Shown piece after piece: positions 43,078 through 48,941 of a stretch of DNA of 64,000 nucleotides. The DNA comes from an uncultured archaeon (lineage in GTDB: Archaea > Asgardarchaeota > Lokiarchaeia > Sigyniarchaeales > SOKP01), in assembly GCA_964388035.1 (NCBI GenBank), contig CAYLZE010000006.1, positions 48,576 to 112,575 of the forward strand, read 5' to 3'. The notes under the pieces are model-generated. The model was not told where the DNA came from, made no database searches, and saw nothing but the letters and a program-made list of their open reading frames with translations. Positions within the stretch are counted from its first letter, which is position 1. Each line of letters starts with the position of its first letter. Made by a program: the position numbers and the translations under genes.

Positions 43078-43108
43078 ATAGAATGAAATTTTCAAACACA
43101 CTTGAATA

Positions 43109-44290
43109 TTAACTTTTTATTTCAAAAAACTTTACTTGCTCTACGATGAATTCACATAATTCTTTTAACAAGTGGGCATCCACATTTTCGAGAGAATCGT
43201 ATTTAGAGTGCATGTATTGACCTGCTTCGGGGCTTCCAAACTCGAAGAGATTAAATTTTTTTCTGAATAGATAGATTCCATCAGTATGGACACCACGATT
43301 AATCCTGCTGATATATGTAAAAAAACCTCTTTTCTTAGCATGAGAGCGAAAAAGTTTGAGATAATCTGGATTATTTTCTAAATTATTTTTTCCTATAAAA
43401 ATCCCCACGCTTTTTTTTCCTAAAGATTCAAAATTATTAACAATTGTTCGACGTGGATCCACTTGCTTTAACTTTTTATAGAAATATCGTATTCCCATCG
43501 TGCCCGTTTCTTCAGCCCCCGTAAGAACGAACCACAAATTCAATTTTTTCAATTTCTCAGTGTTAGGAGGTTGAGAGTAATAGTCCATGAGTTCTAAAAC
43601 GCATGCCACACCAGAAGCATTATCAATAACCCCTTTAGATTGATTATTAATAGTATTAAGAGCAAGGATCGCAAGCGTTATTAAGTTAACAGCAAGTGGA
43701 AAAGCACCGATATAATAGAATAACCGTGCAAGTTGGGGTAAAATGATGTTCTTTAATAAAATGATGATTACGCAAGCAAGCAATGAAATTATAAAGAAGA
43801 AAATGCTGATAAATCGCAATCTTACCGTAACTCTTTGCCCTTTAGAATCCAAATGAGCAATGAAGAAAATATTTTTGACGTTATTGGTTTTATCACCTTC
43901 CATTTCTTTGGATTTTTGTCCACTCAATTTAATGTATAAATTTTGGGAATCAAGTACTTTTCCGATTCGGATATTTTCGGGATTTCTTGTTAGGATAAAG
44001 AACGGAAGAAAAAAGAGGAATGTAATGATAAGGCTTAAGGACACGAATATCCCGCTTAAATTCAAGTAGAGTGTAAATATAATCCATAATGCTGTGGGAA
44101 AAGCAATTTTAGGATAAATACGAGAATAAAAAGTGGAGAATTTAAAAGATTGGGTTTCAAGAGGTAAATTTAATTTTTTAATCTCTTCCTTGGCGAGAGT
44201 AAAAGCTCTATCTTCATGAATTGTTCCCGATAATCTAGGGAAGGCAAATATTTTCAAATATTCTTGGATCCTTTCTTCATTTAAGCCCAT
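43109..44290 (-). CDS. M28 family membrane metallopeptidase
   Basis: FPRLSGT, AHLDS, DNASG, GAEETG, HTD, MHS..D. Confidence 0.85.
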   Translation of the reverse strand: MGLNEERIQEYLKIFAFPRLSGTIHEDRAFTLAKEEIKKLNLPLETQSFKFSTFYSRIYPKIAFPTALWIIFTLYLNLSGIFVSLSLIITFLFFLPFFILTRNPENIRIGKVLDSQNLYIKLSGQKSKEMEGDKTNNVKNIFFIAHLDSKGQRVTVRLRFISIFFFIISLLACVIIILLKNIILPQLARLFYYIGAFPLAVNLITLAILALNTINNQSKGVIDNASGVACVLELMDYYSQPPNTEKLKKLNLWFVLTGAEETGTMGIRYFYKKLKQVDPRRTIVNNFESLGKKSVGIFIGKNNLENNPDYLKLFRSHAKKRGFFTYISRINRGVHTDGIYLFRKKFNLFEFGSPEAGQYMHSKYDSLENVDAHLLKELCEFIVEQVKFFEIKS

Positions 44291-45011: not shown

Positions 45012-45680
45012 ATGGAAAAAATTGAAGAAGAATTGAAAATAGATGAATTTAGAAGATCCTTTCTAATATATACTAGAAAAGCATTTAAGATGCTTCCAAA
45101 TTTAGAAAACCCCTGCATATTAGATATAGGATGCGGTTCGGGAATTCCAACTTTAGAATTAGCCACATTAAGTAATGGGAAGATCATCGGAATCGATATT
45201 GACCAAAATGCTATAAGTGAATTCAAAAAGAAGATTAAAGATTCAAATTTAAGCAAGAGGATTAAAGCTTTAAATCTCTCCTTGTTTGATGTAAATTTTC
45301 CTAAGGAATGTTTTGATATAATATGGGCAGAAGGTGCTGTAGGTCCTATTGGGTTTGAAAAAGCGTTAAGACATTGCAAGCGTTTATTAAAACCCAATGG
45401 ATTCATGGTAATCCATGATGATCTGAAAAAGAAAGAAGAGAAATTAGAAATGATTTTAAAAGATGGATATGAATTACATGACATGTTTGAATTACCTGAG
45501 GATACGTGGGGTATTGAATATTATCAACCATTAGAAATCAAAATGAAAGAGTTTCGTATCAAGCATAAAGAATCACCTCAGATAATGGAGAAATTAAAGA
45601 AATACCAAGATGAGATCAATGCATTTAAGAACGATCCAAGCGATTTCAAATCCATTTTTTATATTATAAAAAGAATCTGA
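45012..45680 (+). CDS. Class I SAM-dependent methyltransferase
   Basis: ILDIGCGSG, FDIIWAEGA, LKPNG. Confidence 0.92.
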   Translation: MEKIEEELKIDEFRRSFLIYTRKAFKMLPNLENPCILDIGCGSGIPTLELATLSNGKIIGIDIDQNAISEFKKKIKDSNLSKRIKALNLSLFDVNFPKECFDIIWAEGAVGPIGFEKALRHCKRLLKPNGFMVIHDDLKKKEEKLEMILKDGYELHDMFELPEDTWGIEYYQPLEIKMKEFRIKHKESPQIMEKLKKYQDEINAFKNDPSDFKSIFYIIKRI

Positions 45681-45792
45681 AGAAAATTTGGATGCAAATT
45701 AAAACCAGATTATTATCTCTTTCAAAATTATTTTTTAAAATGATGGGTGATCAAAAAGTTACCTTTTTTAACATTTATCTAGAAATAAATGA

Positions 45793-46011
45793 ATGAAAGA
45801 GATTTCTAAGAAAGTTGAGAATGAAAAAATATGTGACAATAACATGTGGGATAAAATAAATGAGTGCCTTAGAAATGATGATTATGAATTACTGAAGGCG
45901 CATTTTGGCCGAGATGATTTAAGCTTACAAATTATTGATATGCTGCCCAAGTTAGGTAAAATTAAAGTGTCTATTGAAGATTTTCAATCGGGAACTATTC
46001 TTGGAAAATAG
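45793..46011 (+). CDS. Hypothetical protein (72 aa)
   Basis: ATG-started ORF in an otherwise empty gap; no motif. Confidence 0.45.
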   Translation: MKEISKKVENEKICDNNMWDKINECLRNDDYELLKAHFGRDDLSLQIIDMLPKLGKIKVSIEDFQSGTILGK

Positions 46012-46057
46012 AAGATCTCTAAAGGATGAAAATGACCATTCTATTTTTACTTACTTC

Positions 46058-46095
46058 TAAAAAAAAAAAGAGAAAAGGAAAAACGGTGGCAACCG
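46058..46095 (-). terminator. Hairpin plus U-tract terminator of the putative selenoprotein gene
   Basis: Minus strand CGGT-TGCC-ACCG followed by TTTTTCCTTTTCTC and a long T run. Confidence 0.5.
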
Positions 46096-46096
46096 G

Positions 46097-46138
46097 AAAT
46101 CGCTAATCTTCTAAGATTTTTAAGATTAGGTCATATTT
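46097..46138 (-). promoter_or_regulatory. Eukaryote-type SECIS-like element in the 3' UTR
   Basis: Minus strand AUGA-C-CUAAUCUU-AAAAAUCUUAG-AAGAUUAG-C-GA-U: AUGA/GA kink-turn core, perfect 8-bp stem, A-rich loop; AUGA begins 10 nt after the stop. Confidence 0.75.
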
Positions 46139-46144
46139 TTATGG

Positions 46145-46492
46145 TTATTTATATTTCAAGAACAGGTAGTTTCTACTCCATTTAAACATTTTATAAATCT
46201 TGGCATCCATGATGAAATCTTCGGGATGTTCAAAATCGCCAAATAATGGTCGTTCTAAGTAGACTTGAATCGTTTTTTCACCAACTTTAAGTTCCGTCCA
46301 TTTATCAACACTATCATACTTTCTCACTTCACTTTCGGATAGCATTTGTACCATAATTTGGCAAGATGTTCCTGATCAGGATCGCATGAAATATCGATAC
46401 ACCAAGATGACAATTGGTTCTGCATTTTCGTTCTCTAAGGTTTGCTCTAATTGTTCTTGAATTACTTGTTTAGCATCTTCAGTTACTTGCAT
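46145..46492 (-). CDS. Putative selenoprotein, HesB/IscA-like N-terminus (115 aa, Sec at codon 39)
   Basis: MQVTEDAKQVIQEQLEQTLENENAEPIVILVYRYFMRS-TGA-SGTSCQI reads in frame into the tracked 69-aa ORF; TGA at 46376-46378; SECIS-like hairpin downstream. Confidence 0.75.
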
Positions 46493-46621
46493 TTTTTAAG
46501 TGATATTTCTTTTCTTAAAAAAATGGTATATATCCCTAAAATCTTAAGCTTATATTTTAAAATTATTTAAAAAAAAAGCTTTAAATAATATTTGTTTTGG
46601 GAAATATTTAGATCATGATTC

Positions 46622-47404
46622 TTAAATTTCTTTTTCTTCTTTTATTTTGGGCTTGTATTTAACCATGATCACGATGATTACCCACAATATATAAAGCATT
46701 ACGACTCCGCTTATCCAACCGTTTTCACCGCCCTCTTCCATAGTAAATATAGACAAAAATCCTAACGAAATGACTCCCAAAAGAGCAAAGAATACCATCA
46801 TAATGACTTTACCTAAAAAACAATAAATCAGCGTCTTTTTCTTATCGTATTTAAGGAAACCCAATGTCGTTAATAAAATAGATTCTGGCAAGGGCGTAGC
46901 TCCGAATAATAAGATTATAAAGGGAATTAATTTAGGTTTCTTTAAAATAAGCTGACTCCACGGATTTTGTAATTCATGAGACTCTCGACTGATTAGACTC
47001 TGAGTACCTCTGCCAATCACCCAATCTAGCATGTCTCCCAAAGTATTAGAAATAGCTGCAGATAGAACTAATAATATAATCAATATCCACGCATCTTCTT
47101 TAGATAGTAACCAAGTTGCGGTAAAAGCGGTGATAGGAATGGCATAGGGCACGGGAATAGGAATGATCGCTCCAATGAAACATACTAATATCGTAAAACC
47201 GATTGCTATATATACAGGAATAGCATCAAGGGCTTCAGAACCAAACCAGTTGCTCATATCGAATACATTCCCTACGTTTTGATAAAGTGCAGATAATATG
47301 GTGACTACGATTATCACTCCCAGAAAGAGAATCAGGATTATATTGATTTTTTTCTGAGACTTTTTCACCTTTTTCTCTTCCAGTATATTATTATTTTCAG
47401 TCAT
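46622..47404 (-). CDS. DedA/VTT (SNARE-associated) family membrane protein
   Basis: IIPIPVPY, NTLGDMLDWVIGRG, LFGATPLPE, FLGK. Confidence 0.8.
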   Translation of the reverse strand: MTENNNILEEKKVKKSQKKINIILILFLGVIIVVTILSALYQNVGNVFDMSNWFGSEALDAIPVYIAIGFTILVCFIGAIIPIPVPYAIPITAFTATWLLSKEDAWILIILLVLSAAISNTLGDMLDWVIGRGTQSLISRESHELQNPWSQLILKKPKLIPFIILLFGATPLPESILLTTLGFLKYDKKKTLIYCFLGKVIMMVFFALLGVISLGFLSIFTMEEGGENGWISGVVMLYILWVIIVIMVKYKPKIKEEKEI

Positions 47405-47510: not shown

Positions 47511-48941
47511 TTAAGATTGTTTTTCCTTGAGATAATCCAAGTAATTCTTTTCCTTTTCGATATGAATCGCTTGCAATTTATTCTTTTGTTCTTTCCATTC
47601 TGCTCCACCTAAAGGAAAGAACTTGATGGCTATAGCAGCAAGAAGCGAAAAGATCCCTGGAATGAGGGCTATTCCTATCATGATACCCAGCTTAGCAGAA
47701 TAGGATTGTTCCGTACCGGGGACATTAATAAACCCATATGAAGAAATTATGGTCAAGAATAACCAAGGAGCAATGGAAACTGCGGGCTTAGTAATAAGTG
47801 CGCTCACCCCAGAATAACTCGTTTCTCTGCGTTTTCCGGTACGCATCTCATCGTAATCGATGGCATCCGCCAAAACCATCTGGATTGTCATGGTCTGTCC
47901 TGAATATCCGATTCCTAAAAGGACCATGGCAATTATGGCTGTAAAGAAATTCCACCCGATGAAGAAGAAAAGGAAAAAGGCTGCACCCGTAAATATAATC
48001 GTCCAAAAAAATATTGTTTTTAATTCATATTTTCCAAGAAATTTATTGAAAACTATGGTGAAGGCAAATATCATGCCGAAAAAGATAACGAGTGGAACGA
48101 TGGTAAGGACACCGCCAATATCAAGCACGAAATCAAGATAATAAAATACCGCACCCGTCAACGTGTATTGTGCTACGGTTAAGCAGAAAGCCCCTACTTC
48201 AAAAATTAAAAAGGGCTTGTTTTTAAAAGTTTCCTTGATCGAATTCCAGTAACTTAGAGGTTCTTCTAGGTAAGTATATTTATTTTCTTTTATATAATAG
48301 CTTGCAATGAAAATGATCACACCGCAGATAATTCCAAGAATGACCATCGTATTTTGGAATACGGCGATAGGAGGTGCATCTGAACCCGTTAGTAGAACAG
48401 AGGGAAGTAAAAAAGTAAGCAGCGTGCCAAGCCCGGTAAAGATAGAAACAAAAATCATTACTCCGGCCCTTGCTTTTGAGGTAATTGCCATTTCTGCCGG
48501 CATCGAATATGTTATTAACCCCACGATGGTAAAGATAGTATCGAAAGCAAAAAGTATGAATAAAAAATACCAAAATAGCGCGACTTGGTCATTCAAACCG
48601 ACTAAGGGAAACCAGCAGATAATAAATAAGATCACGTAAAATGGCGCTCCAAACCTTATATAAGGAATCCTTCTTCCATACTTCTCTGACTTGGTCCTAT
48701 CTTCTATAAATCCAAAAAGGGGATCATTTAATGCGTTCCACGCGATAAATATTAGCCAAGCAAGCCCCGTATAAAATTCACTTAAACCTAAATGAACATT
48801 ATAATAATATGTTATCGGACCTAATCCCAATCCCGATAAGACCACGTGTGCAAAGTACAAGATACCGTAAGAGAACTTTGATTTCATGGGGATTTTTTCC
48901 TCAATTGAGGTAGAGGATGGCCCTTTTTCAACTATTTTCAT
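47511..48941 (-). CDS. MFS transporter, GPH family
   Basis: WNALNDPLFGFIED, YGRRIPY, DAIDYDEMRTGKRRE. Confidence 0.9.
   Translation of the reverse strand: MKIVEKGPSSTSIEEKIPMKSKFSYGILYFAHVVLSGLGLGPITYYYNVHLGLSEFYTGLAWLIFIAWNALNDPLFGFIEDRTKSEKYGRRIPYIRFGAPFYVILFIICWFPLVGLNDQVALFWYFLFILFAFDTIFTIVGLITYSMPAEMAITSKARAGVMIFVSIFTGLGTLLTFLLPSVLLTGSDAPPIAVFQNTMVILGIICGVIIFIASYYIKENKYTYLEEPLSYWNSIKETFKNKPFLIFEVGAFCLTVAQYTLTGAVFYYLDFVLDIGGVLTIVPLVIFFGMIFAFTIVFNKFLGKYELKTIFFWTIIFTGAAFFLFFFIGWNFFTAIIAMVLLGIGYSGQTMTIQMVLADAIDYDEMRTGKRRETSYSGVSALITKPAVSIAPWLFLTIISSYGFINVPGTEQSYSAKLGIMIGIALIPGIFSLLAAIAIKFFPLGGAEWKEQKNKLQAIHIEKEKNYLDYLKEKQS

What the first reader, a model, noticed from the sequence alone, without database searches (positions are those of the whole stretch)
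46097..46138. Eukaryote-like SECIS hairpin directly after the TGA-containing ORF
Seen on the minus strand 10 nt after TAA: AUGA-C, perfect stem CUAAUCUU/AAGAUUAG, loop AAAAAUCUUAG, then C-GA-U, followed by a terminator-like hairpin and U-tract. Known: the AUGA...GA tandem G-A core with unpaired apical As defines eukaryotic SECIS, and a similar short-stem form is described for Lokiarchaeota; methanogen SECIS uses a different GAA/A motif. This independently supports Sec recoding.
Basis: partly seen in the sequence, partly recalled or inferred. Interest (0 to 1): 0.75.

Follow-up and report, generated by a model that had tools for sequence, protein, structure and literature searches.

The report
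Loki-type SECIS after hidden selenoprotein gene
The hairpin is a genuine selenocysteine-insertion signal of the already published, eukaryote-like type found in Loki-group Asgard archaea; it lets an in-frame UGA in a small IscA/HesB-fold gene be read as selenocysteine, and that gene family is missing from the Asgard selenoprotein lists I read.

Summary
Observation confirmed, interpretation supported. On the minus strand, 10 nt after the TAA of a 115-codon ORF with one in-frame TGA, lies AUGA / C / 8-bp stem / 11-nt loop AAAAAUCUUAG / stem / C / GA / UUU. This fits the published lokiSECIS (Mariotti 2016) position for position.

- A covariance model built only from eight other SECIS elements of the same genome scores it 34.1 bits (E 4e-6), the best hit in the window.
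- In 18 related genomes, every UGA-containing homologue with 3' sequence (26/26) carries the element just after its stop. The three Cys-containing paralogues carry none.
- Seven of the nine upper-stem pairs show compensatory changes.
- A 3-bp lower stem leaves a 3-nt bulge before the tandem G.A pairs, which is kink-turn geometry.
- A short GC-rich side hairpin with a GC-containing loop follows all 35 elements examined, against 1-2% of control positions.
- The genome has SepSecS, a Sec-containing SelD, EFSec and PSTK candidates, and an intron-bearing tRNA-Sec candidate. TGA is otherwise an ordinary stop.

The RNA is a new member of a known kind. The protein family and the side hairpin are not described in the papers I read. 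This scan had already noted both: the ORF on this same DNA, the side hairpin on other contigs of this genome.

The parts
46145..46492 (-). Selenoprotein gene: 115 codons plus TAA, with an IscA/HesB-like fold and the motif R-S-U-S-G-T-S-C.
   Evidence: Translation. In an alignment of 31 homologues the Sec column is the only invariant column, with 28 U and 3 Cys. AlphaFold pLDDT is 91.6. The top 9 structural matches are all IscA/SufA/HesB-fold proteins, Z 8.8-5.3, followed by a drop to 3.2.
46376..46378 (-). In-frame UGA at codon 39, read as selenocysteine. It lies about 241 nt upstream of the SECIS core.
   Evidence: TGA is an ordinary stop elsewhere, ending 22% of open frames of 300 codons or more.
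46136..46138 (-). 5' strand (AAA) of a 3-bp lower stem, the C-helix of a kink-turn.
   Evidence: Pairs with UUU at 46097-46099. 96% of cells are paired in 27 family elements, with A-U changed to U-A in 4. Other SECIS elements of the genome carry UAG/CUG, UGG/CCA or UGG/CUA at the same place.
46133..46135 (-). Three unpaired bases, U-A-U (N-A-U in the family), forming the bulge before the G.A pairs. The A-U are the first two letters of AUGA.
   Evidence: Alignment A3 columns 5-7. The kink-turn reading is an inference from known kink-turn geometry.
46131..46132 (-). GA of AUGA, the 5' half of the tandem sheared G.A/A.G core.
   Evidence: Invariant in 27/27 family elements and 8/8 other SECIS elements.
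46122..46130 (-). 5' strand of the upper stem. C46130 faces C46102 and is unpaired here. CUAAUCUU forms 8 Watson-Crick pairs.
   Evidence: Seven of nine pairs show changes on both sides. The first position is paired in only 14/27.
46111..46121 (-). 11-nt apical loop AAAAAUCUUAG, with an A-run at the start and AG at the end.
   Evidence: The identical loop follows two VhuD genes (C32, C57). A21-A23 and A28-G29 are conserved.
46102..46110 (-). 3' strand of the upper stem (AAGAUUAG plus C).
46100..46101 (-). GA, the 3' half of the G.A/A.G core.
   Evidence: Invariant in the family.
46097..46099 (-). UUU, the 3' strand of the lower stem.
46084..46095 (-). Side hairpin CGGU-UGCC-ACCG, with a GC dinucleotide in the loop.
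   Evidence: A comparable hairpin starts 0-5 nt into the sequence that follows the core GA in 35/35 SECIS elements. Controls: 2.2% of random 40-mers and 1.2% of fixed windows after long ORFs. The stems differ between genes: CGG/CCG, CACUC/GAGUG, AUGG/CCAU, GGGA/UCUC.
46060..46083 (-). U-rich tract (U5, then CCUUUUCUC, then a run of U), the probable transcription stop.
   Evidence: Sequence. Seen after all 14 type-A family members but not after type-B members or other SECIS elements. Termination at oligo-U tracts is established archaeal biology; its use here is an inference.
46550..46562 (-). TTTTAAAATATAA, a TATA-box-like motif 58 nt upstream of the ATG.
   Evidence: Sequence. Closely similar A/T-rich boxes, containing TTTTAAAATATAA or TTTTAAATTATAA, precede type-A genes in other genomes. 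Promoter function is an inference.

Best explanation
This is a functional 3'-UTR selenocysteine insertion sequence of the Lokiarchaeial, eukaryote-like class (lokiSECIS, or Asgard type I eSECIS-like).

The gene is transcribed as a short single-gene mRNA that ends in the U-tract just after the element. The element folds into three parts:
- a 3-bp lower stem (AAA/UUU);
- a 3-nt bulge, then tandem G.A/A.G pairs (the GA of AUGA against the downstream GA), then an 8-bp upper stem capped by an A-rich 11-nt loop. This is a kink-turn-like core;
- an adjacent GC-rich side hairpin.

The structure marks the mRNA so that the Sec-specific elongation factor carrying Sec-tRNA(Sec) decodes the UGA at codon 39, about 241 nt upstream, instead of release factor. 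The result is a 115-residue IscA/HesB-fold selenoprotein with Sec at the position that is Cys in its paralogues.

Shown here: the element, its fit to the family, its covariation, its strict association with UGA-containing and not Cys-containing homologues, and the presence of Sec machinery in the genome.

Inferred: the kink-turn fold, what binds it (L7Ae or EFSec are candidates; no SBP2 is known in archaea), the role of the side hairpin, and actual Sec insertion.
For: - Position-for-position fit to the published lokiSECIS.
- Independent model R1, built from 8 other SECIS elements of this genome: 34.1 bits, E 3.6e-6, top of the window.
- Reciprocal test: model R2, built from this gene family only, recovers all 8 other SECIS elements (E 1.5e-8 to 1.8e-3). 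It does not recover the false pattern hit inside a coiled-coil ORF.
- 26/26 UGA-form homologues with 3' sequence have the element within -82 to +42 nt of the next TAA/TAG. 0/3 Cys forms have it.
- Covariation: 92-93% of cells paired against 80-82% in shuffles, and 38-42 cells with double changes against about 12. None of 500 shuffles reached the observed value for either measure.
- The UGA column is the only invariant column of the protein alignment and aligns with Cys in the paralogues. A confident single-domain model spans the UGA.
- Sec machinery: SepSecS at 385 bits on the same contig; SelD with an in-frame TGA; an EFSec candidate at 237 bits; a PSTK candidate; and a tRNA-Sec candidate with a UCA anticodon and an insertion in the T-loop, as published for Loki, about 430 nt upstream of SepSecS.
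- TGA ends 22% of long ORFs, so there is no genome-wide reassignment.
Against: - There is no experimental evidence of Sec insertion or of the RNA fold.
- The hairpin is thermodynamically weak (-5.4 kcal/mol, z -2.1). Its longer context is not significantly stable.
- No Rfam family matches it.
- The tRNA-Sec match is below Rfam's threshold (25 against 47 bits), and its acceptor stem looks odd.
- The Cys-form control comes from one genus only.
- Homologues are related, so shuffle statistics overstate independence.
- The archaeal SECIS-binding factor is unknown.
Confidence: 0.9

Rival explanations
1. The hairpin and the following U-tract are only a transcription terminator or 3'-end stability element. 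The TGA is then a true stop, and the locus encodes two small peptides or a decayed gene.
For: The side hairpin plus U5 looks like an intrinsic terminator. Public gene calling kept only the 69-residue C-terminal part.
Against: - The AUGA and GA letters, the A-run and the terminal AG of the loop are conserved, while the stem covaries.
- The same architecture follows VhuD and VhuU, which are known selenoprotein genes.
- It is absent after Cys paralogues.
- Only 6% of regions after long ORFs have a comparable side hairpin.
- The reading frame and its conservation continue across the TGA in 28 homologues.
Confidence: 0.03
2. The element is a kink-turn RNA bound by L7Ae for another purpose, such as translational control or a box C/D-like small RNA, and lies next to the gene by coincidence.
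For: The geometry is kink-turn-like: 3-bp stem, 3-nt bulge, tandem G.A pairs. Weak, non-significant snoRNA-model matches lie nearby (E 4.5).
Against: There are no C/D box sequences (RUGAUGA, CUGA). The element is strictly linked to in-frame UGA genes of unrelated families. It has the A-rich apical loop typical of SECIS.
Confidence: 0.04
3. The hairpin is a chance product of an AT-rich intergenic region.
For: The genome is 33% GC. The stem is A-U rich and weak.
Against: E 3.6e-6 with an independent model. About 0.8 pattern hits per genome are expected against 10 seen. The element is conserved with covariation in 18 other genomes.
Confidence: 0.01

Closest known systems
lokiSECIS (Mariotti et al. 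2016, PMC4989117), also called the Asgard type I eSECIS-like element (Huang, Xiao and Zhang 2024, PMC11227280)
   Same: AUGA before the stem and GA after it. Nine stem positions. An 11-nt loop beginning AAAAA and ending AG. Position a few nt after the stop codon. In some homologues the UGA inside AUGA serves as the gene's own stop, as published for VhuU.1. No SBP2 in the genome.
   Different: It serves a gene family not among the seven Asgard selenoprotein families listed (SelD, FrhA/VhuU, HdrA, FrhD/VhuD, PrxL, AhpF-N-like, DsbA-like). The first stem position is C.C here and is paired in only half of the family. The conserved side hairpin with a GC-containing loop is not described in the text of either paper that I read; their supplements and figures were not seen.
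Eukaryotic SECIS (Rfam RF00031 SECIS_1 and related families)
   Same: AUGA...GA non-Watson-Crick core, unpaired adenines in the apical loop, location in the 3' UTR, and action at a distance on an upstream UGA.
   Different: The upper stem is only 8-9 bp and the lower stem only 3 bp. There is no Rfam match. There is no SBP2. An extra 3' side hairpin is present.
Methanococcales/Methanopyrus archaeal SECIS (GAA_A bulge type)
   Same: A 3'-UTR location in an archaeon, and the same archaeal Sec synthesis route (PSTK, SepSecS).
   Different: There is no GAA/A asymmetric bulge, no GC-rich 10-bp lower stem and no 3-bp GC upper stem.
Kink-turns bound by L7Ae (box C/D RNAs, Kt-7)
   Same: A canonical stem, a 3-nt bulge, tandem sheared G.A pairs, and a variable, often non-Watson-Crick next position.
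   Different: No protein binding was tested. The canonical stem is only 3 A-U pairs here. The function is tied to UGA recoding.
HesB-like selenoprotein (NCBIfam TIGR01911) and IscA/SufA A-type carriers (Pfam PF01521). This entry concerns the protein served by the element.
   Same: The same fold (Z 8.1-8.8 to IscA/SufA over 87-93 residues), and Sec or Cys in an S-U/C-S-G-like motif.
   Different: Sequence models miss it. Matches are 1/31 members to TIGR01911 at E 0.054 and 4/31 to PF01521, best E 8e-5. The window protein itself matches none. It has a second Cys five residues after Sec and no C-terminal Cys pair.

Membership tests
lokiSECIS / Asgard type I eSECIS-like | AUGA immediately 5' of the upper stem | tested here: met
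   46134-46131. 25 of 27 family elements have AUGA; one has GUGA and one ACGA.
lokiSECIS / Asgard type I eSECIS-like | GA (rarely AA) immediately 3' of the upper stem | tested here: met
   46101-46100. Invariant in the family.
lokiSECIS / Asgard type I eSECIS-like | Upper stem of 9 bp (Mariotti), or 7-15 bp with at most 2 mismatches (Huang) | tested here: met
   8 Watson-Crick pairs plus one C.C position. Compensatory changes in 7 of 9 pairs.
lokiSECIS / Asgard type I eSECIS-like | Apical loop of 11 nt (8-20 in Huang), starting with an A-run and ending in G, usually AG | tested here: met
   AAAAAUCUUAG, identical to the loops after two VhuD genes.
lokiSECIS / Asgard type I eSECIS-like | Lies just downstream of a coding sequence with an in-frame UGA that aligns with Cys in homologues | tested here: met
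   10 nt after the TAA. The U column aligns with Cys in 3 paralogues.
lokiSECIS / Asgard type I eSECIS-like | Scores with a model built from bona fide members | tested here: met
   R1, built from 8 other SECIS elements of the genome, gives 34.1 bits, E 3.6e-6. The published lokiSECIS model itself was not available.
lokiSECIS / Asgard type I eSECIS-like | Host encodes the archaeal Sec machinery | tested here: met
   SepSecS, SelD(U), EFSec-like and PSTK-like genes. The tRNA-Sec is only a sub-threshold candidate.
lokiSECIS / Asgard type I eSECIS-like | Directs Sec insertion | not testable with these tools
   Needs labelling, mass spectrometry or a reporter assay.
Eukaryotic SECIS (Rfam SECIS families) | Match to the curated covariance models | tested here: not met
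   No SECIS family at E up to 10 in 45500-47000.
Eukaryotic SECIS (Rfam SECIS families) | Recognition by SBP2 | tested here: inconclusive
   Only two small L7Ae-family proteins, plus one weak match inside a 429-aa frame, were found. The papers report no SBP2 in Asgard. Binding was not tested.
Methanogen-type archaeal SECIS | GAA_A asymmetric bulge between GC-rich stems | tested here: not met
   No such bulge or GC-rich stems in the sequence or the fold.
Bacterial SECIS | Stable hairpin immediately 3' of the UGA, inside the coding sequence | tested here: not met
   The 59 nt from the UGA fold no better than shuffles (z +0.30).
Kink-turn | Canonical stem, 3-nt bulge, tandem G.A/A.G, then a non-canonical stem | tested here: met
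   The sequence layout fits, and the 3-bp lower stem covaries within and between gene families. The three-dimensional fold was not tested.
HesB-like selenoprotein TIGR01911 / PF01521 (protein) | Score above the curated HMM cut-off | tested here: not met
   The window protein has no hit. Only a few family members hit weakly.
HesB-like selenoprotein TIGR01911 / PF01521 (protein) | IscA/HesB fold | tested here: met
   The model has pLDDT 91.6. Its top 9 matches are all of this fold, with Z up to 8.8.

The most novel reading that the evidence does not exclude
The Loki-type SECIS may be a three-helix module rather than a simple hairpin. A 3-bp lower stem completes a true kink-turn. An obligatory GC-rich side hairpin with a conserved GC-containing (often UGC) loop either stacks on that very short lower stem, standing in for eukaryotic helix I, or is a second contact for the still-unknown archaeal SECIS-binding factor. 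If so, the published two-dimensional models of Asgard SECIS elements are incomplete, and the side hairpin would be a handle for finding the binding protein.
Probability: 0.4. Interest if true: 0.65.

Novelty: new member of a known kind. Interest (0 to 1): 0.5.

Why it matters
The element confirms that a gene which public gene calling truncates to 69 residues is a full-length selenoprotein. It adds an IscA/HesB-fold family, found in 19 of the 135 genomes scored from one Promethearchaeota (Loki-group) family, to an Asgard selenoproteome so far described as seven families.

Homology-based catalogues miss such families. The analysis shows that a simple SECIS model recovers them.

The covarying 3-bp lower stem and the side hairpin seen in every element give concrete, testable features for two open questions. 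One is how archaea without SBP2 recognise a eukaryote-like SECIS. The other is how the eukaryotic element arose.

Tried and rejected
- **Rfam:** a search of the region found no SECIS family and only noise.
- **Pfam and NCBIfam on the window protein:** no meaningful hit.
- **Profile against PDB sequences:** nothing.
- **Large protein database search:** returned only the truncated 69-residue product of this same gene.
- **The search for related loci:** The window protein found nothing in genome contigs. A homologue from another genome (P0003) identified one record, a Promethearchaeota MAG.
- **tRNA-Sec:** aragorn and Rfam at default thresholds found none. Only a relaxed search gave the intron-bearing candidate.
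- **Second-best R1 hit, 43078-43117 (+):** rejected as a SECIS. Its loop is 6 nt with no A-run or AG, and the preceding 380-codon oxidoreductase-like ORF has no in-frame TGA.
- **R2 hit at 47970-48033 (-):** lies inside the MFS transporter ORF and was treated as chance.
- **Pattern hit on contig C27:** lies inside a coiled-coil ORF and is a false positive.
- **Gene neighbours:** a VTT/DedA-like membrane protein, an MFS transporter and a methyltransferase. They give no functional clue.
- **Bacterial-type SECIS after the UGA:** rejected.
- **Genome-wide TGA reassignment:** rejected.

Full report
**What is there**

All coordinates below are on the minus strand.
- An ORF runs from ATG 46492 to TAA 46147-46145. 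It has 115 codons and one in-frame TGA at codon 39 (46378-46376), in the motif R-S-U-S-G-T-S-C.
- Ten nucleotides after the TAA comes AUGA (46134-46131), then C.
- The stem CUAAUCUU follows, then the loop AAAAAUCUUAG, then the stem AAGAUUAG.
- After the stem come C, GA (46101-46100) and UUU.
- A small hairpin CGGU-UGCC-ACCG (46095-46084) follows, and then a long U-rich tract.

RNAfold predicts exactly the 8-bp hairpin. It is weak: -5.4 kcal/mol, z -2.1. Longer contexts are not significantly stable. The case therefore rests on motif and conservation, not on folding energy. Rfam has no matching family.

**Fit to the published element**

Mariotti et al. 2016 (PMC4989117, read) define the lokiSECIS as follows:
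- AUGA before the stem;
- a 9-bp stem;
- an 11-nt loop whose first five bases are mostly A and whose last base is an ultraconserved G, usually preceded by A;
- GA after the stem;
- a position close to the stop codon.

The window element matches every item. The one exception is that the first of the nine stem positions is C.C. Huang et al. 2024 (PMC11227280) generalise this as the type I eSECIS-like model: GA_[G/A]A core, 7-15-bp stem and 8-20-nt loop. That model is also met.

**Is it more than chance?**

A strict pattern scan of the whole 5.47-Mb, 33% GC genome gave 10 hits. Five first-order Markov genomes gave 0-3, mean 0.8. Nine of the ten real hits lie just after ORFs with in-frame UGA:
- four VhuD-type genes;
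- one VhuU, where the UGA of AUGA is the stop, as published;
- two members of a family with adjacent UGAs;
- a tiny zinc-ribbon ORF ending in UGA;
- this gene.

The tenth hit is a false positive inside a coiled-coil ORF. The loop AAAAAUCUUAG is identical after two VhuD genes.

I aligned the eight other SECIS elements of the genome (A1) and built covariance model R1 without the target. I then searched the window with filters off. The target is the top hit at 34.1 bits, E 3.6e-6. The runner-up scores 21.4 bits and is not a SECIS.

In the reverse direction, model R2 was built only from this gene family's elements. It recovers all eight other SECIS elements, with E from 1.5e-8 to 1.8e-3. It does not recover the false positive.

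**Homologues**

A six-frame search of 400 genomes of the phylum found the protein in 19 genomes including this one. All 19 belong to one taxonomic family. Almost every match has exactly one TGA inside it. One of these genomes is a Promethearchaeota (Loki-group) MAG.

The loci hold tandem paralogues of three kinds:
- type A, with motif RSUSGxxC, as in the window gene;
- type B, with motif xxUTMxFCGN;
- a Cys form, with motif KQACAGSY.

In the protein alignment the Sec position is the only invariant column: 28 U and 3 Cys. A second paralogue (type B) in this genome, on contig C124, has its own SECIS with the same stem sequence.

R1 finds an element after 26 of 26 UGA-form genes that have 3' sequence. 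The elements lie within -82 to +42 nt of the next TAA/TAG. Negative distances occur where the UGA of AUGA is itself the stop. R1 finds no element after any of the three Cys forms. One caveat applies: the Cys forms come from a single genus.

**Structure from covariation**

The analysis used an alignment of 27 family elements (A3).
- The eight inner pairs of the upper stem are 85-100% paired (96% overall).
- Seven of the nine pairs show changes on both sides.
- No shuffle in 500 reaches the observed paired fraction or the covariation score.
- Sliding the 3' partner by 1-3 columns drops pairing to 39-56%.
- The outermost position (C.C in the window) pairs in only 14/27. This fits the variable position next to the G.A pairs in kink-turns.

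A 3-bp lower stem (AAA 46138-46136 with UUU 46099-46097) is 96% paired, with A-U changed to U-A in four elements. In the other gene families the same three positions read UAG/CUG, UGG/CCA or UGG/CUA. That is covariation between families.

The lower stem leaves a 3-nt bulge (N-A-U) directly before the tandem G.A/A.G pairs. This is the layout of a kink-turn such as box C/D (established knowledge; the fold itself was not tested). Short lower stems are mentioned by Huang et al..

**The side hairpin**

All 35 elements examined (27 from this family, 8 from other genes) have a 3-6-bp GC-rich hairpin that starts 0-5 nt into the sequence following the core GA. Its loop contains GC, often within UGC. 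The stems differ between genes: CGG/CCG, CACUC/GAGUG, AUGG/CCAU, GGGA/UCUC.

Controls are far lower:
- 2.2% of random 40-mers;
- 6% of 70-nt regions after long ORFs;
- 1.2% at a fixed offset after long ORFs.

A U-tract follows the hairpin only in type-A genes. The hairpin is therefore not simply a terminator. I found no description of it in the text of the two papers I read; their figures and supplements were not available.

**Host capacity for selenocysteine**
- SepSecS, 385 bits, on the same contig.
- SelD with an in-frame TGA.
- An EFSec-like gene at 237 bits, just under the bacterial SelB model's cut-off.
- A PSTK/KTI12-like gene.
- A tRNA-Sec candidate at contig C6:4085-4188. It has a CUUCAAA anticodon loop and a 19-nt insertion in the T-loop, about 430 nt upstream of SepSecS. 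It scores 25 bits, below Rfam's 47. The published Loki tRNA-Sec also carries an intron in the T-loop.
- TGA ends 22% of open frames of 300 codons or more, so the code is standard.
- Only L7Ae and L30e-type proteins are present, with no SBP2-like protein. This agrees with the literature.

**The protein**

AlphaFold with the family alignment gives pLDDT 91.6. Sec lies at the turn of a beta hairpin. Foldseek's top six matches and the top nine in the VIA-align second look are all IscA/SufA/HesB-fold proteins, with Z 8.8-5.3 followed by a drop to 3.2. Sequence models barely see the relationship.

A HesB-like selenoprotein family is known from methanogens and bacteria (listed). Neither Huang et al. 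(no mention of HesB) nor the 2026 review passages I read (PMC13188914) list it for Asgard archaea.

**Mechanism, with its status**
- Shown: the element, its class, its covariation, its exclusive link to UGA-form genes, and the Sec machinery.
- Inferred from established knowledge of SECIS function: the folded 3'-UTR element recruits EFSec carrying Sec-tRNA(Sec), directly or through a kink-turn-binding protein such as L7Ae. That complex decodes UGA-39.
- A UGA too close to the element, namely the one inside AUGA, acts as a stop. This is seen in four homologues and was proposed by Mariotti et al..
- The U-tract probably ends the transcript.

**Verdict**

The RNA belongs to a published class, so it is a new member of a known kind. 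Its added value is twofold. It marks a selenoprotein family missing from the Asgard catalogues. The comparison also exposes a covarying lower stem and a side hairpin present in every element.

Earlier notes of this scan had reached the same reading of the ORF on this same DNA. They had also noted the side hairpin on other contigs of this genome. I re-tested both here.

Noticed in passing
L053:1501-1604 (G000 contig C6:4085-4188, + strand; outside the window): A tRNA-Sec candidate with a UCA anticodon and a 19-nt insertion in the T-loop, about 430 nt upstream of the SepSecS gene. It scores 25.3 bits, below Rfam's 47, and its acceptor stem as aligned is A-U rich and doubtful.
   Followed up: partly
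L034:2501-2560 (+) and L040:2501-2560 (+) (contigs C9 and C81): Two homologous ORFs with adjacent in-frame UGAs (SSUGUUAK and HADUUAD), each followed by a lokiSECIS with a side hairpin. The family is not in the Asgard selenoprotein lists I read.
   Followed up: partly
L035:87-121 (- strand; contig C9:15453-15487): A lokiSECIS about 40 nt after a tiny zinc-ribbon ORF (CxxC...CxxC) whose last codon before TAG is UGA. It may be a C-terminal selenocysteine.
   Followed up: no
L065:1443-1890 (- strand; contig C124:7614-8061): A second paralogue of the family in this genome (type B, motif SSTUTMAFCGN). Its SECIS has the same stem sequence, CUAAUCUU/AAGAUUAG, but a 10-nt loop. The strict pattern scan missed it.
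   Followed up: partly
L011, L014, L020 (other genomes): The family occurs as tandem arrays in the order type B (Sec), Cys form, type A (Sec). Each Sec gene has its own SECIS. A closely similar A/T-rich box (containing TTTTAAAATATAA or TTTTAAATTATAA) lies before the type-A gene.
   Followed up: partly
window 43078-43117 (+): An AUGA-flanked hairpin with a 6-nt loop lies right after the TAG of a 380-codon ORF that has no in-frame TGA. It scores 21.4 bits with R1. It is probably a chance or 3'-end hairpin, not a SECIS.
   Followed up: yes
L042 (contig C47), end of selD: The SelD gene has Sec in HGUSCKLG. It ends ...VSK-UGA-UAA, so an AUGA overlaps its stop. The downstream structure was not matched by R1 or R2, which fits the published type II form for SelD.
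   Followed up: no
G000 contigs C7:54735-54839 (-) and C19:22275-22377 (+): With introns allowed, aragorn calls a tRNA with a CUA anticodon ('Pyl') and one with a UUA anticodon ('Stop'). These may be artefacts of the permissive search, or suppressor or pyrrolysine tRNAs.
   Followed up: no
L041:1750-1806 (+) (contig C90): A VhuU-like ORF (YDCULSCAAH) uses the UGA of its SECIS AUGA as its stop codon, as published for Loki VhuU.1. The contig reads N shortly after.
   Followed up: no
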